A stretch of 64,000 nucleotides of DNA from a virus, in the IMG/VR virus record IMGVR_UViG_3300037516_001783, positions 32,001-96,000 of that record; one strand, given 5' to 3'. Position 1 is the first letter of the stretch. Every line of letters begins with the position of its first letter. The notes under the pieces are model-generated. The model saw only the letters and a list, made by a program, of their open reading frames with translations, made no database searches and was not told the DNA's origin. The translations under genes were made by a program, and so were the position numbers. Shown here one piece after another: positions 31,270 to 52,255 of the stretch.

Positions 31270-31640
31270 TTCTTTCTGAATTTTCTAAGCTTTACTTGCA
31301 TTTCTAATAACTCACCTCTTATCTGGTGAGCATCTTCTACATAAACGTCTGAACATTGCATTTTAGCAAGTTCCTCACCGATACATTTAACAAATCTATC
31401 AATCTCTTCCTCTATCTTTATAGAAGACATTGTAGTTGAAACTACCATTTTGATTTTTAGTAATTGAGGTGTAACTCCAGGACTTGAGAAAATAACAATA
31501 TCAGATTGGTTTAATAATCCAAAAGCTTCACTTTTAAGGTCTTTACATTTTACGTTGTGTAAATCGAAACCTTTTTCTTTGTGGTTACAATCGTTGATGT
31601 CTAAAATTAAGACTTTAGGATTGTCTATTTGATTTGCCAT
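31263..31640 (-). CDS. Hypothetical protein
   Basis: Start moved to ATG 31640 because the track start lies inside the tRNA-like gene. Confidence 0.55.
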   Translation of the reverse strand: MANQIDNPKVLILDINDCNHKEKGFDLHNVKCKDLKSEAFGLLNQSDIVIFSSPGVTPQLLKIKMVVSTTMSSIKIEEEIDRFVKCIGEELAKMQCSDVYVEDAHQIRGELLEMQVKLRKFRKKW

Positions 31641-31655
31641 ATAATAATTAAATTT

Positions 31656-31726
31656 TGCCACCCCAATAGGTCTCGAACCTACATCTCTCTGCTCAGAGTA
31701 TTCTCACCGAATTAAACTACAGGGTG
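31656..31726 (-). tRNA. tRNA-like RNA T1, anticodon loop deleted
   Basis: CACCCTG/TGGGGTG acceptor, D-loop GG, CTCTG-AG-CAGAG anticodon arm (2-nt loop), GTAGG-TTCGAGA-CCTAT T-arm, ends GCA. Confidence 0.8.
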
Positions 31727-31729
31727 GTC

Positions 31730-31874
31730 AATTAAAAGTTTAACAGTTTCCTCGGTTTAGACGTCGTTCCCCTCCCACTGTATTTGTTCTACTTGTGACT
31801 TTCCCAACCCTTAGGGAATTCACTTTCTTTCAGTTAATTACTCTGAAGATTTCAAATCAAATTAACTTTTAATT
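31730..31874 (-). ncRNA. Putative structured ncRNA immediately 5' of T1
   Basis: 11-bp closing stem aattaaaagtt/aacttttaatt enclosing three hairpins; no ORF. Confidence 0.55.
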
Positions 31875-44922: not shown

Positions 44923-45000
44923 TATCGTACTCCACAAGCTTCTATATTAAATTTCATACACTTATATGAATTGGAACTTTTGAAGCTTTAAATGACGATA
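44923..45000 (-). ncRNA. Long interrupted hairpin immediately 3' of T2
   Basis: Nested tatcgt/acgata, aagcttc/gaagctt, ttcata/tatgaa helices. Confidence 0.5.
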
Positions 45001-45002
45001 TT

Positions 45003-45076
45003 TGCCCTGAACCCAAGAATCGAACTTGGACACCTCGAACAATAGGACGAGTACTCTACCATTAAGATAATTCAGG
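45003..45076 (-). tRNA. tRNA-like RNA T2, aberrant 8-10 nt anticodon loop
   Basis: CCTGAAT/GTTCAGG acceptor, AATGGTA D-loop, CTCG-TCCTATTGTT-CGAG arm, CCAAG-TTCGATT-CTTGG T-arm, ends GCA. Confidence 0.8.
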
Positions 45077-47942: not shown

Positions 47943-48230
47943 TTACTTTGTTTTCTTTAACAACTCTAATTCCTCTATTCTAAGTTTTCTCTTTGGTGAG
48001 ATTTTTGCTACAACAACACGGATACCAAACTCATCGTTCAATTTTTCCTTTAATTCATTGTACTTCTGAACATTTTTAACAATCTCTTCGTGATATGCTA
48101 AATTCATGTTTTTCAAAACCCTCATTTCTTCAATTATTGGTCTTGTTACTTTACCATGAGGATATAACCTTTTGTCTGTTAAATCGAATAAATTTACATA
48201 AAAACCTTCTTCACACTTCCCTTGCTTCAT
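47943..48230 (-). CDS. Hypothetical protein
   Basis: ORF track. Confidence 0.55.
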   Translation of the reverse strand: MKQGKCEEGFYVNLFDLTDKRLYPHGKVTRPIIEEMRVLKNMNLAYHEEIVKNVQKYNELKEKLNDEFGIRVVVAKISPKRKLRIEELELLKKTK

Positions 48231-48247
48231 AAAATAATTAAATTTAA

Positions 48248-48390
48248 GTGATTCTGGTAGGAATCGAACCTACAACATTCCCTACTTGCTTACATGTTAC
48301 ATTTAACTACCTAGGATGTTGTTATTTGTGAACAAGAAACCATCAAGAATCCAATTTCGACGTTTAGAACCATTAAACGTCTACAGAACC
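48248..48390 (-). ncRNA. tRNA-like RNA T3 with about 85-nt insert replacing anticodon/variable arms
   Basis: GGTTCTG/CAGAATC acceptor, 8-bp D-like stem GACGTTTA/TAAACGTC with GG in loop, GTAGG-TTCGATT-CCTAC T-arm. Confidence 0.75.
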
Positions 48391-48395
48391 ATATT

Positions 48396-48594
48396 AAAAA
48401 TAAACAAACTCCCTTACCTATCAATAATTACTATCAAGGTTCTGTACTCACATCTTCATCGTTACTCTTCTAAAGTTTACGACTTATAGCTTTTCTTTGA
48501 GGATACCTTTCCGTAATTTGTCGACTTGGACGGTACACTTACAATCAGGACATTAAGTGTAGGCAAATAACTCCTACATTGTTTGTTTATTTTT
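48396..48594 (-). ncRNA. Putative structured ncRNA between T4 and T3
   Basis: 14-bp perfect closing stem aaaaataaacaaac/gtttgtttattttt; internal hairpins. Confidence 0.6.
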
Positions 48595-48665
48595 GCTCTG
48601 GTGAGAGGATTCGAACCTCTGTCTCCCACTGAAAGGACGGCACTCGCCAACTATGCTACACCAGA
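48594..48665 (-). tRNA. tRNA-like RNA T4, shortened and mispaired anticodon arm
   Basis: Perfect TCTGGTG/CACCAGA acceptor, GCAT/GTGC D-stem, CGTCCTTTCAGTGGGAGAC centre, AGAGG-TTCGAAT-CCTCT T-arm, ends GCA. Confidence 0.8.
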
Positions 48666-48674
48666 ACCTTAACA

Positions 48675-48775
48675 ACTTATGTAAATTGCTAAGTACAGTT
48701 CCAAGTCAGCTTCACTTGAATTTCAGACTACTGTACACCTGTATCTTTAAATAAACCACTTTTTACATAAAAGTT
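48675..48775 (-). ncRNA. Putative structured ncRNA 5' of T4
   Basis: aacttatgtaaa/tttacataaaagtt closing stem; inner gtacagt/actgtac helix. Confidence 0.45.
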
Positions 48776-48836
48776 TCAACTACATGTTTTGTTTATTTCA
48801 AGAACCTTAGACTTGTTTTCACATAGGTCTAAGATT

Positions 48837-49016
48837 TTAGTTGTTAATCAGTTCAGACCATCTTTGTATAGTTACTAAGAACATTTCCACAAAGTCACAT
48901 CAATCCCTGATAGGCTTAGATTCTTCCTAATTTACCTGACACAGACATTTCTCTGCATTTTCGTCACTTGATTGTTATAGAACAGACAAGAACAAATAAA
49001 TTAGGTTAACAACTAA
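48837..49016 (-). ncRNA. Putative structured ncRNA
   Basis: 13-bp closing stem ttagttgttaatc/ggttaacaactaa with one imperfect pair; no ORF. Confidence 0.55.
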
Positions 49017-49070
49017 TTTTATTTCCTGTAACTCCAAGTTTGTTAATATTTACTTACTTCAAGTAGGAAT

Positions 49071-49167
49071 TGTAGCTTTCAAGAGATTCGAACTCCCATC
49101 CTTTACAGTTTTCGATTCCTGTATCCTCATTACGAAATGAGTGCTTTATCCATTAAGCTAGAAAGCT
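49071..49167 (-). tRNA. tRNA-like RNA T5, 6-nt anticodon loop and long variable arm
   Basis: Perfect AGCTTTC/GAAAGCT acceptor, GCTT/AAGC D-stem, CTCAT-TTCGTA-ATGAG, TACAG/CTGTA extra arm, GGGAG-TTCGAAT-CTCTT, ends ACA. Confidence 0.8.
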
Positions 49168-49170
49168 GTT

Positions 49171-49259
49171 ATAATTAGACATAACTCTTCTTTGGTTGAG
49201 TTCTTACCATTCTGGGTGGTGCTTACGAAGGTATTACACCCTTTCTCCTCTCTAATTAT
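49171..49259 (-). ncRNA. Putative three-way-junction ncRNA 5' of T5
   Basis: ataattaga/tctaattat closing stem; aactc/gagtt and gggtg/caccc hairpins. Confidence 0.55.
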
Positions 49260-49273
49260 TTTAATTTTCATAA

Positions 49274-49428
49274 ATCAAAACAACCCTACTAACGGAGTCA
49301 AACCATTAACTAAAACATGAAATATTGAAAATTGCGACTTACAATATTTCATTAGTTTGTTAGTGATGTGACTTTCAAACTAATCTTTATGTTAAAGTTT
49401 CTTACACAAGAAGTACGGTTGTTTTGAT
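49274..49428 (-). ncRNA. Putative structured ncRNA
   Basis: 12-bp closing stem atcaaaacaacc/ggttgttttgat; 11-bp inner hairpin atgaaatattg/caatatttcat. Confidence 0.6.
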
Positions 49429-49561
49429 ATTATTTTGCAACTTATTTTATCTTTCGAAATACGTAGTTACCAAACGCCATGCCCCTACATGGTTTATATT
49501 TCCGATTGAAATATAGGTTGAACCTCAAACTTAGTTTCCTAGAGGTTTGAGATTTAGTGTC

Positions 49562-50392
49562 TTATTTTTTGATATTTATCATATCGTAGAAACCTGATTG
49601 AGTTACATACTGAGGCATAGGGCATCCAGCTTTCGTCCAACCTTCTATAGCTTTTTCTTTTATAGCTATTTCTCTTTCTTGAAGTAATAACGCTGTTACA
49701 CCTAATGACCTTGCTCTACTTGCTTCAGAGTTTAAATTAGCAAGTTCAATTTCTTTCTTGGTGTTAGCTAACTTTTTATCTAATATCGCACTTTCACCTT
49801 CAACCTTGTTTCTTTCAGCAATTTTAGCTTTCATTTCTGGTGTGAACGACAGTTGTGAAGAGTATGTTAGTAATTCGAACCCAGCCTTGTCAAATATCTT
49901 TCTAAGAGAATCTGTACACATTTTCTCATATTTCAACTTACCACCGTTGTTCATTAATTGTTCATCCGATAATGAGTTAGAAATCTCTCTGGAAATATCT
50001 TTGATTCTTGGGTCTAATATTTGGTCTTCAATCATATCGAGGTCTATATTATCTCCTAAATGTTTATAATTGAAAACAATATTTATACCTTGACCAACCT
50101 TCGCTCTATAAGTATAGATAGGACTAACAAAGAAATCGGTATTATCTGTAGAACTTATTGTTAATTTATCACCATAATCACCTTTTTGTTCATAAAGTGG
50201 AACTTGAAATAATTCACTTCCAGCAGTCCAAGTGGCAACTTTTCCTGTTACTCTATGGAAATCAGATTTACCATCCTTACCATAATTTTCCATCATTACA
50301 CCTTCGTGGTTAGGTTTTACCCAATCATTACAAGAGGATAACAACATGATTGCTCCTAAGAGCATGACCAAATTAAATGCTACTTTTTTCAT
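49562..50392 (-). CDS. SPFH/band-7 family lipoprotein
   Basis: LLSSC lipobox; VKPNHEGV..ENYG...VPLYEQ; C-terminal coiled coil and IEGW. Confidence 0.8.
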   Translation of the reverse strand: MKKVAFNLVMLLGAIMLLSSCNDWVKPNHEGVMMENYGKDGKSDFHRVTGKVATWTAGSELFQVPLYEQKGDYGDKLTISSTDNTDFFVSPIYTYRAKVGQGINIVFNYKHLGDNIDLDMIEDQILDPRIKDISREISNSLSDEQLMNNGGKLKYEKMCTDSLRKIFDKAGFELLTYSSQLSFTPEMKAKIAERNKVEGESAILDKKLANTKKEIELANLNSEASRARSLGVTALLLQEREIAIKEKAIEGWTKAGCPMPQYVTQSGFYDMINIKK

Positions 50393-50549
50393 TTGATTTT
50401 GACTTTGTTTGTCGTTTAATATATAAGTAAACTCCTGCTATTGTAATGCCCACAGGAATTAAGGCATAATATAAATTATAATGATTAAAAGTTGTAACAA
50501 TAACTTGTAACATTATAAGTAATACGATTGTAAATATAACATCTTTCAT
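50373..50549 (-). CDS. 58-aa two-TM protein coupled to SPFH gene
   Basis: Manual ORF MKDVIFTIVLLIMLQVIVTTFNHYNLYYALIPVGITIAGVYLYIKRQ... Confidence 0.55.
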   Translation of the reverse strand: MKDVIFTIVLLIMLQVIVTTFNHYNLYYALIPVGITIAGVYLYIKRQTKSKSNEKSSI

Positions 50550-50566
50550 AATGAATATAACGCTGT

Positions 50567-52255
50567 TTAAATCATTTCAACTCCGAAACCAGAGTTCATT
50601 AAGTAAATTCCTTTAATTGCTTGATGCATAGACATTGCTGTATCGTCGTGCCCACTTGTTGCTGAAATACCTTTATTAGTATATGAAACAGAAGTAAGTT
50701 CGTTAAACAAGATATCTTTGATATTCCTACTGTATTCACTTCCGATAGGGACTTTTATTTTACCCTTTTCAAATAGTAAAGACATTCCTGGAATCCCAGT
50801 TTTCAAGTCATTTTTGCTTTTTGCACTTGTAGCTTCATGTACAATTGGTAACCCTTCACTATCTGCTGCCTGACAGAACATTGCTTGAAATCCGTTACTT
50901 TCTATAACAATTATGTCTGGTTTGAAGTCTACATTTAAACCTCTCAACTTTCCTAATTGTTCTAAATAACTTTTACCATGCATCCTGTATTGGTTAATTA
51001 ACCAAATATCACCTGAAGCGTCTAAACCTAAAACAGTATAAACAGTATAATCGGCTCCCACATTTGCAGAAATAGCTAAATCGACTCCTATAACAACTCT
51101 TTCAAAAGATATTGGGAAACTTTCTATGTTATGACACATTTCAAATTTATCCATACCAACCAACGATTTCTGTAAGATATTGTATGGGAATAAACTTGAA
51201 TCATTTGAAACAGGTCTAACTAAGTGTTCTCTTGAGAAAGTTACAGAACCTTGTGATTCCTTTTTATTATAAAGTGTGTCAAAATTATACCTATTCCTCC
51301 ATAATAATTTACCATCTGGAAAGATACTTGGGTATTCAGCATAATAGAAAATTTTGTCTTTCTTTAACTGACCATATAAATCTTCAGCATGAAAAGGAGT
51401 CCCAACAACTTTTACATCACCTTGTGGGACAATCATATTCATTATAACAGAATAGAAATAACTTGTGTATTTATTTCTTTGTTCTGCAGAATATAAATTT
51501 GATTCATGTAAAAAGTCATCTACTATTATAAAATGTGGATGGGCACCACGAGTAGATGCTCCGGCAGAAGAAGAAGTGATTGTTGAACCGTTCTTACATA
51601 CAATCCTTGTTTCTGCCCAATTCCCATCACTTCTTGTTTCTGGTAATAACTTCTCTCTTAACAATTCATTTTCTTGAATTGTTGTTTTTAAAGTTCTAAG
51701 TAATTTTGTTGACTGACCTTTGGCGAAACTGAATAGATAACCTTCCTTTCCTACAGTACTTAACTCTCTTCGTTTTGAATCTTTTGTGTACCTATACAAT
51801 TTCCATATAGGATATGCATTGGAGAAGAAGTGACTTTTACCATGGTCTCTGGCTGCCAGAATACACATATACTTAAAAGCTTGACAAGTTTCTGCCCATT
51901 CTATATGGTGCCAATTCATTTCAAATTCAGGCATAACTGAACTTATGAAATATGTCAAACTTTCAACTCTTAAAGTTTCTTCAAATGAATCTGTTAATTT
52001 ATCTAAATACAGATTTGTTATTGGGTTGTAACTTAATTCAGAATTTGAGTGTTTGAAATTACCATAAACTGTACTGTATGTTTCAGTAACCAAATCCTGT
52101 AATAACCTGTCTACATCACCTTCAGAACCACCTAATAATTGTGACAAACCTGAGTCGTCAAGATTTTCAATTATTTCCAAAGTAATTCTTAGACAGTCAT
52201 CTAACTTATCGAACGGTATGGCACCTTGAACTATATTCTTGTTAATTATATCCAT
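50567..52255 (-). CDS. terL: Terminase large subunit
   Basis: NWHH, AARDHGKS Walker A, RGAHP, IIVDD Walker B, VGTP, IGVDLA, HDDTAM nuclease motifs. Confidence 0.93.
   Translation of the reverse strand: MDIINKNIVQGAIPFDKLDDCLRITLEIIENLDDSGLSQLLGGSEGDVDRLLQDLVTETYSTVYGNFKHSNSELSYNPITNLYLDKLTDSFEETLRVESLTYFISSVMPEFEMNWHHIEWAETCQAFKYMCILAARDHGKSHFFSNAYPIWKLYRYTKDSKRRELSTVGKEGYLFSFAKGQSTKLLRTLKTTIQENELLREKLLPETRSDGNWAETRIVCKNGSTITSSSAGASTRGAHPHFIIVDDFLHESNLYSAEQRNKYTSYFYSVIMNMIVPQGDVKVVGTPFHAEDLYGQLKKDKIFYYAEYPSIFPDGKLLWRNRYNFDTLYNKKESQGSVTFSREHLVRPVSNDSSLFPYNILQKSLVGMDKFEMCHNIESFPISFERVVIGVDLAISANVGADYTVYTVLGLDASGDIWLINQYRMHGKSYLEQLGKLRGLNVDFKPDIIVIESNGFQAMFCQAADSEGLPIVHEATSAKSKNDLKTGIPGMSLLFEKGKIKVPIGSEYSRNIKDILFNELTSVSYTNKGISATSGHDDTAMSMHQAIKGIYLMNSGFGVEMI

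What the first reader, a model, noticed from the sequence alone, without database searches (positions are those of the whole stretch)
48240..49560. 1.3-kb array of stem-closed structured ncRNAs punctuated by tRNA-like elements
Seen: the only long ORF-free stretch in a densely coding window is tiled almost without gaps by units each closed by its own terminal helix: 48396-48594 (14 bp), 48675-48775, 48837-49016 (13 bp), 49171-49259 (9 bp), 49274-49428 (12 bp) and about 49438-49520. T3, T4 and T5 lie between them, in several cases within 0-10 nt of a helix end. An AACAGCGTT motif sits at 49689-49697, about 130 nt upstream. Inference: one precursor is cut by host RNase P/Z at the tRNA-like tags, as in mitochondrial tRNA punctuation, releasing several unrelated small RNAs. 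I recognise none of them as a known family.
Basis: partly seen in the sequence, partly recalled or inferred. Interest (0 to 1): 0.88.

Follow-up and report, generated by a model that had tools for sequence, protein, structure and literature searches.

The report
Stem-clamped RNAs between phage tRNA-likes
The only long gene-free stretch of this 108-kb lake phage is a real island of three tRNA-shaped elements separated by folded units, each shut by its own end helix; it resembles the unexplained small RNAs of phage T4's tRNA cluster, but the units have no relatives in any database searched and no known job.

Summary
The observation largely holds. Window 48231-49561 is the longest ORF-free gap of a complete 107.9-kb lake phage whose genes all lie on the minus strand.

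- **tRNA-shaped elements:** two pass the Rfam tRNA threshold (anticodon UCA; a 96-nt 'Tyr'). A third is a 143-nt cloverleaf with an ~85-nt insert.
- **Clamped units:** four of the six claimed units (U1, U3, U4, U5) are closed by perfect 9-14 bp helices. These survive a fold of the whole region (pair probability 0.66-0.98). Such helices are about 30 times commoner than in shuffles (P~0.0005). U2 and U6 are not supported on the gene strand.
- **Overall folding:** z = -6.0, against +0.6 to -4.3 for nine coding controls.
- **Known families:** nothing beyond tRNA matches Rfam.
- **Relatives:** none of the units has one, so covariation is untestable for them. Three boundary elements do recur in other lake phages with compensatory changes. 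One is a clamp helix that encloses 13 nt here and ~165-175 nt elsewhere.

Best reading (0.45): a co-transcribed RNA island cut at the tRNA shapes by host RNase P/Z, like T4 RNAC/RNAD. Three tags bound only U1 on both sides. Unchecked notes from this scan report similar stem-clamped arrays in 50+ other phage genomes.

The parts
49521..49554 (-). H0: 10-bp hairpin just after the stop codon of the upstream lipoprotein-like gene; a paralogue of H
   Evidence: Pair probability 0.93. Member of a hairpin family with compensatory changes.
49438..49520 (-). U6 as claimed. On the gene strand it is three small hairpins, not a stem-closed unit.
   Evidence: z = -0.9 on the minus strand. Closed only on the + strand.
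49274..49428 (-). U5: 155-nt unit with a 12-bp perfect clamp (17 bp with one mismatch) around a long imperfect palindrome
   Evidence: z = -6.1. Clamp pair probability 0.98.
49171..49259 (-). U4: 89-nt unit with a 9-bp clamp and three internal hairpins. It ends 3 nt before T5. A 37-aa ORF (49158-49271) overlaps it.
   Evidence: z = -2.2. Clamp pair probability 0.66.
49072..49167 (-). T5: 96-nt class II tRNA-family element ('Tyr', GUA) with a long variable arm and an off-standard anticodon arm
   Evidence: Rfam 43.6 bits. ARAGORN draws a 7-nt loop with C at position 33 and an A.G mismatch. The minimum-energy fold gives a 4-nt loop on a 6-bp stem, and a perfect 5-bp stem in another register leaves a 6-nt loop.
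49023..49069 (-). M1:M2 clamp hairpin. It encloses 13 nt here but about 165-175 nt of cargo in two other lake phages.
   Evidence: All 13 pairs hold in 3 of 3 sequences, with one compensatory pair and gene-strand G.U pairs. Pair probability 0.93.
48837..49016 (-). U3: 180-nt unit with an 11-bp clamp and two sub-domains. The 3' sub-domain plus H recurs at about 90% identity in another lake metagenome.
   Evidence: z = -2.0. Clamp pair probability 0.90. Run X5, record 22, covers 48801-48924.
48804..48835 (-). H: boundary hairpin, homologous to hairpin M3 of loci L001, L018 and L023
   Evidence: 98% of cells paired, 3 pairs changed on both sides, and 0 of 500 shuffles reach the covariation score.
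48668..48803 (-). Spacer holding the claimed U2 (48675-48775). It has weak alternative hairpins and a repeated motif also found after H0 and after T4.
   Evidence: U2 clamp pair probability 0.00.
48595..48665 (-). T4: tRNA-family element with the opal-suppressor anticodon UCA
   Evidence: Rfam 42.7 bits. ARAGORN draws a 7-nt loop with U33 and a G.A mismatch in the stem.
48396..48594 (-). U1: 199-nt unit with a 14-bp perfect clamp. It is the only unit bounded by tRNA-like elements on both sides.
   Evidence: z = -1.4. Clamp pair probability 0.95.
48249..48391 (-). T3: 143-nt tRNA-shaped element with an insert of about 85 nt in place of the anticodon and variable arms. The start codon of the next gene follows 17-18 nt later.
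   Evidence: Acceptor-stem pair probability 0.98. The leader is shared with T1.
49689..49697 (-). AACAGCGTT: a strand-specific, promoter-like motif inside the end of the upstream gene
   Evidence: Relatives encode the same amino acids with other codons and lack the motif.

Best explanation
This is a phage RNA island transcribed on the gene (minus) strand as part of a long precursor. Transcription comes either by read-through from the upstream genes or from a start linked to the AACAGCGTT motif 130 nt upstream. The three tRNA-shaped elements (T5, T4, T3) keep the acceptor stem and T arm, so host RNase P should cut at their 5' ends. Because no CCA is encoded, RNase Z should cut after their discriminator bases.

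Those cuts would release three non-tRNA pieces:
- a 5' block of about 350-390 nt (U6, U5, U4);
- a middle block of about 400 nt (clamp hairpin, U3, H, spacer);
- the 200-nt U1.

They would also release the downstream mRNA with a fixed 17-18 nt leader. The perfect 9-14 bp end helices lock each domain into its own fold and would shield the released ends from exonucleases. The pieces could then persist as small stable RNAs of their own, like RNAC and RNAD of the T4 tRNA region.

Shown: the anatomy, the non-random clamps, the strand, and the tRNA-family membership of T4 and T5. Inferred: transcription, the cuts, the stability of the products, and any function in trans.
For: - ANATOMY: a fold of the whole region yields the same domains, with clamp pair probabilities of 0.66-0.98.
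- CLAMPS NOT RANDOM: clamps of 11 bp or more number 3 against 0.105 in shuffles, P~0.0005. They are 10 times denser than in the rest of the genome.
- FOLDING: region z = -6.0, beyond all nine coding controls.
- tRNA MEMBERSHIP: T4 and T5 pass the Rfam tRNA threshold. T3 has a fully paired acceptor stem and a canonical T arm.
- STRAND: the minus-strand fold is more stable (-312.9 against -277.8 kcal/mol; z -6.0 against -4.8). The conserved boundary helices use G.U pairs that would be A.C on the other strand.
- SELECTION ON HELICES AT THIS LOCUS: the hairpin family H0/H/M3 is 98% paired, has 3 pairs changed on both sides, and beats all 500 shuffles on covariation score. The M1:M2 clamp is 100% paired in three sequences with one compensatory pair, while its content varies from 13 to about 170 nt.
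- RECURRENCE IN THE SAME PHAGE: T1 is preceded by a 145-nt unit with an 11-bp clamp. T2 is followed by an ~80-nt clamped unit with z = -3.5. T1 and T3 are each followed by the same leader and a start codon.
- NO TERMINATOR: no terminator-like site on the gene strand inside the region.
Against: - No unit (U1, U3, U4, U5) has a homologue in INPHARED phages, IMG/VR, JGI metagenomes or the loci fetched. Conservation and covariation of the units themselves are therefore untested.
- The phages that share the neighbouring gene module either have coding sequence at this site or carry a different noncoding block. The island is evolutionarily fluid.
- Apart from U5, single-unit z-scores are modest (-1.4 to -2.2). 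Coding controls of this genome already average about z = -2.
- In another lake sample only the 3' half of U3 plus hairpin H recurs. U3 is therefore not inherited as one block.
- Three tags cannot by themselves separate all the units.
Confidence: 0.45

Rival explanations
1. The units act only in cis. The clamp helices are folding insulators and processing or stability aids, so that each tRNA-shaped element and the downstream mRNA leader fold and get cut correctly. The excised spacers are then degraded and do nothing in trans.
For: Clamps abut the tRNA ends within 0-5 nt. The M1:M2 clamp is conserved even when it encloses almost nothing. Unit contents are not conserved. T1 and T3 sit a fixed 17-18 nt before start codons with an identical leader. 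This suggests that the important product is the processed mRNA or the tRNA-like element.
Against: Insulation does not need 90-200 nt of internally structured cargo. U5 is far more stable than a spacer needs to be (z = -6.1).
Confidence: 0.22
2. The stretch is non-functional filler in a hyperplastic junction between gene modules. It would be a mosaic of recombined hairpin-bounded pieces or small palindromic (MITE-like) inserts around a few tRNA genes. The clamps would be by-products of how the pieces were inserted.
For: Only the lipoprotein-like gene and its 58-aa neighbour are shared with the other phages; the rest of those genomes differs. At the same site the relatives have 0 to about 0.5 kb of noncoding DNA, with blocks swapped and an ORF present or absent. 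Boundary motifs recur in different contexts, including directly after a stop codon. The U3 3' half travels without its 5' half.
Against: Unselected sequence would not keep four perfect long-range helices (P~0.0005). No second copy of any unit exists in the genome. The boundary helices show compensatory, strand-specific changes, which points to selection at the RNA level. No transposase or recombinase domain was found.
Confidence: 0.2
3. The inverted repeats work at the DNA level, as invertible segments (invertons), a replication origin, or a packaging site.
For: The inverted repeats flank segments of 90-200 bp, the size range of invertons. The region lies near the terminase gene. U5 folds equally well on both strands.
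Against: The phage has no serine or tyrosine recombinase domain. Contigs from four lake samples show no strand-changing joints. Cumulative GC skew is monotonic with no turn here. The region is not unusually AT-rich. It holds tRNA genes and gene-strand G.U pairs.
Confidence: 0.04
4. One or more units encode very small proteins, for example the 37-aa ORF 49158-49271 over U4.
For: This phage has many tiled ORFs of 44-74 aa in its other 'gaps'. The 37-aa ORF has an ATG start.
Against: That ORF runs 10 nt into T5. The other ORFs in the region are scattered over both strands and overlap tRNAs. There is no protein-level similarity to any fetched locus.
Confidence: 0.04
5. The units are diverged members of a known RNA class that the searches missed: a theta or HDV-like ribozyme after the suppressor tRNA, GOLLD or ROOL, a Y RNA, or a retron RNA.
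For: U1 starts directly after a suppressor-type tRNA, which is the context of theta ribozymes (PMC10879173). GOLLD and ROOL lie near phage tRNA islands (PMC12286853). U5 has the outline of a retron RNA (end duplex plus a long hairpin).
Against: No Rfam match to any of these at E up to 10, using permissive filters on 2 kb. The 5' end of U1 is an A/U run whose only partner lies 185 nt away, not a compact nested double pseudoknot. The phage has no reverse transcriptase, TROVE/Ro60, DUF2828, CCA-adding enzyme or RNase III.
Confidence: 0.03

Closest known systems
RNAC and RNAD (species 1 and 2 RNAs) of the phage T4 tRNA region (PMC3014915; PMC9697503)
   Same: Small non-tRNA RNAs encoded among phage tRNA genes on the same strand. 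They are presumably cut from a common precursor. Their function is still unknown.
   Different: There is no sequence or Rfam relation. Here the tRNA-shaped neighbours have off-standard anticodon arms. The units are closed by long perfect end helices. Expression is not shown.
tRNA punctuation and 't-elements' of plant mitochondria: tRNA-like structures that mark mRNA 5' and 3' ends (PMC1920247). The animal mitochondrial punctuation model is cited from own knowledge.
   Same: tRNA-shaped elements, some unable to decode, sit directly between other transcripts. They would be cut by RNase P/Z and so define the neighbours' ends. T1 and T3 sit 17-18 nt before start codons.
   Different: The setting is a bacteriophage, not an organelle. 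Processing is inferred, not mapped. Only three tags serve six or more claimed units.
GOLLD and ROOL large ornate RNAs (PMC12286853)
   Same: Structured phage RNAs of unknown function, often near tRNA islands. GOLLD sometimes has a tRNA inside.
   Different: No Rfam match. Here there are several separate small domains rather than one conserved large fold, and no homologues.
Theta (minimal HDV-like) ribozymes next to phage tRNAs (PMC10879173)
   Same: An element within 5 nt of the 3' end of a phage suppressor tRNA, proposed to free that 3' end.
   Different: U1 gives no HDV-family match and lacks a compact P1. Theta ribozymes are reported from gut phages, and those beside suppressor tRNAs are almost all with amber suppressors.
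Promoter-stem-loop cassettes (PeSL) that mediate module shuffling in T4-type phages (own knowledge, Arbiol et al. 2010; not checked here)
   Same: Repeated boundary hairpins (H0, H, M3) and motifs flank swappable small modules in a hyperplastic region.
   Different: Here the modules are noncoding. The hairpins show RNA-level (G.U) constraints. No promoter has been identified.

Membership tests
tRNA (Rfam RF00005) | Covariance-model score at or above the gathering threshold of 29 bits | tested here: met
   T4 scores 42.7 bits and T5 43.6 bits. T3 scores only 18.5 bits over model positions 7-64, so T3 is tRNA-shaped but not a member.
tRNA (decoding-competent) | A 7-nt anticodon loop with U33 on a 5-bp stem | tested here: inconclusive
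   T4 can be drawn with a 7-nt loop, U33 and anticodon UCA, but with a G.A mismatch; the minimum-energy fold gives a 6-nt loop. T5 has a 7-nt loop only with C33 and an A.G mismatch; the minimum-energy fold gives a 4-nt loop on a 6-bp stem, and a perfect 5-bp stem in another register leaves a 6-nt loop. T3 has an insert of about 85 nt instead.
RNase P / RNase Z substrates (tRNA-like processing signals) | A 7-bp acceptor stem stacked on a 5-bp T stem with a T loop; cleavage at the 5' end and after the discriminator base | not testable with these tools
   The structural part is present in T3, T4 and T5. Cleavage was not tested. No RNA holder was listed among the public runs.
Phage tRNA-cluster small stable RNAs (T4 RNAC/RNAD type) | Non-tRNA, non-coding segment between phage tRNA genes on the same strand | tested here: met
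Phage tRNA-cluster small stable RNAs (T4 RNAC/RNAD type) | Accumulates as a discrete stable RNA during infection | not testable with these tools
   No RNA data exist for this phage.
Theta / HDV-like ribozyme | Nested double-pseudoknot core that starts at the cleavage site within 5 nt of the tRNA 3' end | tested here: not met
   No HDV-family match at E up to 10. The first 14 nt of U1 are A/U-rich and pair only with the far 3' end of U1.
GOLLD / ROOL | Match to the Rfam covariance models | tested here: not met
Y RNA with Ro60 (including the scan's Ro60-like 'handle' RNAs) | A Ro60/TROVE or DUF2828-type protein gene in the phage and a shared stem 'handle' among the RNAs | tested here: not met
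   No TROVE and no DUF2828. The units share no handle, and the handle motifs quoted in earlier notes are absent on the gene strand of the region.
Retron ncRNA | An adjacent reverse transcriptase | tested here: not met
   No RVT_1 match in the genome.
Inverton | A site-specific recombinase, and both orientations present in reads | tested here: not met
   No resolvase or integrase domain. No strand-changing joints in contigs of four samples, though depth was low.

The most novel reading that the evidence does not exclude
This phage uses tRNA-shaped elements that can no longer decode as RNase P/Z punctuation marks, a phage counterpart of mitochondrial t-elements. They would cut a long transcript into stem-clamped small RNAs and into mRNAs with a fixed 17-18 nt leader. 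The clamp helices would be conserved frames whose cargo is swapped between phages: the same M1:M2 clamp holds 13 nt here and about 170 nt elsewhere. On this reading the island is a cassette system for producing new small RNAs.
Probability: 0.2. Interest if true: 0.75.

Novelty: new variant of a known kind. Interest (0 to 1): 0.45.

Why it matters
Phage tRNA islands are a recurring home of structured RNAs that nobody can yet explain, such as T4 RNAC/RNAD, GOLLD and ROOL. This locus is compact and easy to test. It has three tRNA shapes with off-standard anticodon arms, four clamped domains with sharply predicted ends, and a clamp that occurs with and without cargo in related DNA. If end mapping confirmed cuts at the tRNA shapes, it would show tRNA punctuation operating in a bacteriophage, on mRNA leaders as well as small RNAs. 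It would also explain why a phage keeps tRNA look-alikes that cannot decode. If the units prove unstable, the locus becomes an example of how hyperplastic phage junctions accumulate hairpin-bounded filler.

Tried and rejected
HOMOLOGUE SEARCHES
- blastn of the region against 50,697 phage records: no match.
- DNA search in the two IMG/VR records that share the neighbouring gene: only 17-26 nt motifs.
- IMG/VR scans with the 3' half of T5, with a 25-mer of U3 that is identical in the X5 relative, and with the M2 motif: nothing new.
- Hairpin-pattern scan: one real relative (L023) and two chance hits.
- Scan for a T arm plus the shared leader: only ordinary tRNA clusters.
- Metagenome scan with the neighbouring protein: four loci, none with the units.
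- Terminase relatives are only 44-47% identical and have no tRNAs nearby.
- The helicase gave no relatives.

SEQUENCING RUNS
- No RNA holder was listed.
- Contigs of three lake samples carry the identical sequence, so they offer no natural variants for covariation.

OTHER CHECKS
- Table 4 reading: no coding frame opens.
- tblastx for decayed genes: nothing.
- GC skew: no origin-like turn.
- Rfam at E up to 10: only chance-level microRNA and sRNA matches besides tRNA.
- No CCA-adding enzyme, reverse transcriptase, TROVE, RNase III, DUF2828, resolvase or integrase in the genome.
- Pfam and PHROGs on the flanking small proteins: no informative match.
- The 19-nt repeat after T4 and H is local, not a genome-wide motif.
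- T4 genome review PMC150520: not held.
Full report
CONTEXT. The window is bases 32001-96000 of a 107,935-base IMG/VR virus record rated complete. It occurs, with identical sequence, in lake-water metagenomes of several studies. All long ORFs lie on the minus strand. The finding sits between a lipoprotein-like gene (49562-50392), which follows the large terminase gene (50567-52255), and a run of small genes leading to a helicase. With ORFs of 80 aa or more as the measure, 48231-49561 is the longest uncovered stretch of the genome. The other 'gaps' are tiled with ORFs of 44-74 aa. This region holds only scattered ORFs of 57 aa or less on both strands. It stays closed under table 4 and shows no decayed coding similarity to any fetched locus.

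WHAT IS THERE. Reading 5' to 3' on the minus strand, a fold of the whole 1,331 nt (pair span up to 260) splits into:
- H0, a hairpin (49554-49521);
- three small hairpins, which are the claimed U6;
- U5 (49428-49274);
- U4 (49259-49171);
- T5 (49167-49072);
- a 47-nt hairpin, here called M1:M2 (49069-49023);
- U3 (49016-48837);
- H, a hairpin (48835-48804);
- a loosely folded spacer (48803-48668, holding the claimed U2);
- T4 (48665-48595);
- U1 (48594-48396);
- T3 (48391-48249);
- then, 17-18 nt later, the start codon of the next gene.

In the ensemble, the closing helices have mean pair probabilities of 0.95 (U1), 0.90 (U3), 0.66 (U4), 0.98 (U5), 0.93 (M1:M2), 0.87 (H) and 0.93 (H0). U2 scores 0.00.

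THE tRNA-SHAPED ELEMENTS. T4 and T5 exceed the Rfam tRNA threshold, at 42.7 and 43.6 bits against 29. T4 carries the opal-suppressor anticodon UCA. T5 is a 96-nt class II shape read as Tyr(GUA). Both have off-standard anticodon arms. T3 is tRNA-shaped, with a 7-8 bp acceptor stem, an 8-bp D stem and a canonical T arm, but an insert of about 85 nt replaces the anticodon and variable arms. None encodes CCA.

IS IT MORE THAN CHANCE?
- Perfect inverted repeats of 11 bp or more, spaced 50-230 nt, number 24 in the whole genome (0.22 per kb). Three lie in this region (2.25 per kb), including the longest in the genome at 14 bp.
- In 2,000 dinucleotide shuffles of the region the mean is 0.105, and P of three or more is about 0.0005. 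For arms of 9 bp or more, 8 are seen against 1.5 expected, P = 0.001.
- The whole region folds with z = -6.0 on the minus strand and -4.8 on the plus strand. Nine coding stretches of equal length from the same genome give z from +0.6 to -4.3, mean about -2. The region is the most structured stretch sampled, but the margin over native sequence is moderate.
- Taken singly, only U5 is outstanding (z = -6.1, equal on both strands). U1, U3 and U4 give -1.4, -2.0 and -2.2. U2 and U6 give -0.5 and -0.9.

Four of the six claimed units therefore stand and two do not.

KNOWN FAMILIES. Besides tRNA, Rfam 15 gives nothing at gathering thresholds. At E up to 10 it gives only chance-level matches. That excludes recognisable HDV-like or theta ribozymes, hammerhead, twister, GOLLD, ROOL, Y RNA and tmRNA. 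The theta-ribozyme context, an element within 5 nt of a phage suppressor tRNA (PMC10879173), prompted a closer look at U1. Its first 14 nt are an A/U run whose only partner is the far 3' end of U1, not a compact nested pseudoknot. The genome encodes no reverse transcriptase, TROVE/Ro60, DUF2828, CCA-adding enzyme, RNase III, resolvase or tyrosine recombinase. This removes the protein partners expected for retron, Y-RNA or inverton readings. Cumulative GC skew shows no turn here.

RELATIVES. No unit has a homologue anywhere I could search. Only the lipoprotein-like gene and its 58-aa neighbour are shared, at 71-83% amino-acid identity, with other lake phage contigs. The terminase, helicase and downstream genes are not shared. 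In three of those contigs coding sequence follows the shared gene directly.

In L001 and L018 a noncoding block follows that is itself mosaic: blocks are swapped and a 163-aa ORF is present or absent. Three short elements of that block recur in the window.
- M1 and M2 are adjacent in the window and form the 47-nt hairpin. In L018 and L001 they lie 173 and 163 nt apart and close a stem-clamped unit. All 13 pairs hold in all three sequences, with one compensatory pair (U-A against C-G) and G.U pairs that exist only on the gene strand. With two lineages this is consistent but not significant: 149 of 500 shuffles do as well.
- Hairpin H equals M3 of L001, L018 and L023, and H0 is a paralogue. Over the five sequences 98% of cells pair, three pairs change on both sides, no shuffle reaches the covariation score, and sliding the partner drops pairing to 14-44%. 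In L023 this hairpin sits directly after a stop codon, as H0 does here.
- A 259-nt contig from a further lake sample matches 48801-48924, which is H plus the 3' sub-domain of U3. It differs at 13 of 124 positions (about 90% identity) and has unlike flanks.

Helices at this locus are therefore under RNA-level selection on the gene strand. Clamps can outlive their cargo, and the modules are exchanged at sub-unit scale.

THE PATTERN BEYOND THE REGION. The two other tRNA-family elements of the window, T1 (31658-31726) and T2 (45005-45076), score 37.8 and 38.0 bits and also have off-standard anticodon arms. They show the same neighbourhood.
- T1 is preceded, 3 nt away, by a 145-nt unit with an 11-bp clamp.
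- T2 is followed by an ~80-nt clamped unit with z = -3.5.
- T1 and T3 share a T stem and are followed by the same leader, AAATTTAATTATT plus NT plus ATG. This leader occurs only at these two places in the window.

AACAGCGTT occurs 13 times in the genome, always on the gene strand and mostly 10-50 nt before a start codon. The copy at 49689-49697 lies in the end of the upstream gene. There, relatives encode the same V-T-A-L with other codons and lack the motif. It is a plausible promoter or regulatory site for the island, but this is untested.

HOW IT MOST LIKELY WORKS. The gene-strand orientation, the absence of a terminator-like site on that strand and the upstream motif make co-transcription likely. 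Bacterial RNase P and RNase Z recognise the acceptor stem and T arm (established knowledge), which T3, T4 and T5 keep. Cuts at their ends would give a 5' block (U6-U5-U4), a middle block (M1:M2-U3-H-spacer), U1, and the downstream mRNA with a short fixed leader. The clamps, starting 0-5 nt from those cuts, would keep each domain folded on its own and protect its ends. Three tags delimit only U1 on both sides. Further cuts, for example in the A/U-rich linkers, are needed to free the rest. The 9-14 bp clamps are short for RNase III (own knowledge).

I put 0.45 on processed, persisting small RNAs. I put 0.22 on a purely cis role (insulation and processing aids) and 0.20 on unselected mosaic filler. 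Small fractions go to DNA-level roles, missed known families and tiny proteins.

COMPARISON AND NOVELTY. The closest known case is the T4 tRNA region, whose RNAC and RNAD are transcribed among the tRNAs and remain without a function (PMC3014915, PMC9697503). tRNA-like 't-elements' that define mRNA ends in plant mitochondria (PMC1920247) are the closest analogue of the tags. GOLLD and ROOL share the tRNA-island habitat (PMC12286853) but not the sequence or architecture. Earlier unchecked notes of this scan describe similar stem-clamped arrays in more than 50 other phage genomes. A Ro60-linked 'handle' RNA family also appears in those notes. I tested for that family here and did not find it. This locus is therefore a new variant of a known kind. 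It is well delimited and non-random, but it is an orphan and its expression is untested.

Noticed in passing
window 21556-53434 (10 sites) and 3 more in the genome: AACAGCGTT occurs 13 times in the genome, always on the gene strand and mostly 10-50 nt upstream of start codons. It is absent from all fetched relatives. It is probably this phage's own promoter or regulatory motif.
   Followed up: partly
window 31638-31726 and 48228-48391: The anticodon-less tRNA shapes T1 and T3 share a T stem and an identical leader (AAATTTAATTATT, then NT, then ATG). This places each 17-18 nt before a start codon. Their acceptor stems differ completely, yet both are fully paired.
   Followed up: partly
window 44924-45000: An ~80-nt stem-closed unit (z = -3.5) starts about 4 nt after the tRNA-like T2.
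   Followed up: partly
window 31730-31874: A 145-nt purine-rich unit closed by an 11-bp perfect helix ends 3 nt before T1. Its 5' arm overlaps the last codons of a small ORF.
   Followed up: partly
window 48595-48665: T4 carries the opal-suppressor anticodon UCA. Yet 7 of 73 long minus-strand ORFs end in TGA, and no frame needs TGA read through. Why the phage keeps a suppressor-type tRNA is open.
   Followed up: partly
window 49562-50549; L001, L018, L019, L020, L002: The lipoprotein-like gene and its 58-aa neighbour form a module shared at 71-83% identity by otherwise unrelated lake phages. L001 has a 163-aa ORF at exactly the point where L018 has only its first 30 nt or so.
   Followed up: partly
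L023 8933-9085; L018 3852-3886: After the M3 hairpin these phages carry another unit of about 125 nt, closed by a short helix and followed by a T run. It may be a terminated small-RNA gene.
   Followed up: no
window 49476-49500, 48780-48798, 48574-48592: A motif (an A-rich run ending in CATGTAG or AATGTAG) follows H0, H and T4. In L001 the matching place after the hairpin is the start of a 33-aa zinc-ribbon-like ORF. The window copies may be remnants of that start site: an ATG followed at once by TAG.
   Followed up: partly
window 48669-48677, 48837-48847, 49006-49016: The 3' arm of the U3 clamp can pair with either of two direct-repeat copies, one at the 5' end of U3 and one just before T4. 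Only the U3 pairing is populated in the predicted ensemble.
   Followed up: partly
L029 2478-2823: An unrelated IMG/VR contig, fetched by a pattern scan, carries a tmRNA gene next to eight tRNA genes.
   Followed up: no
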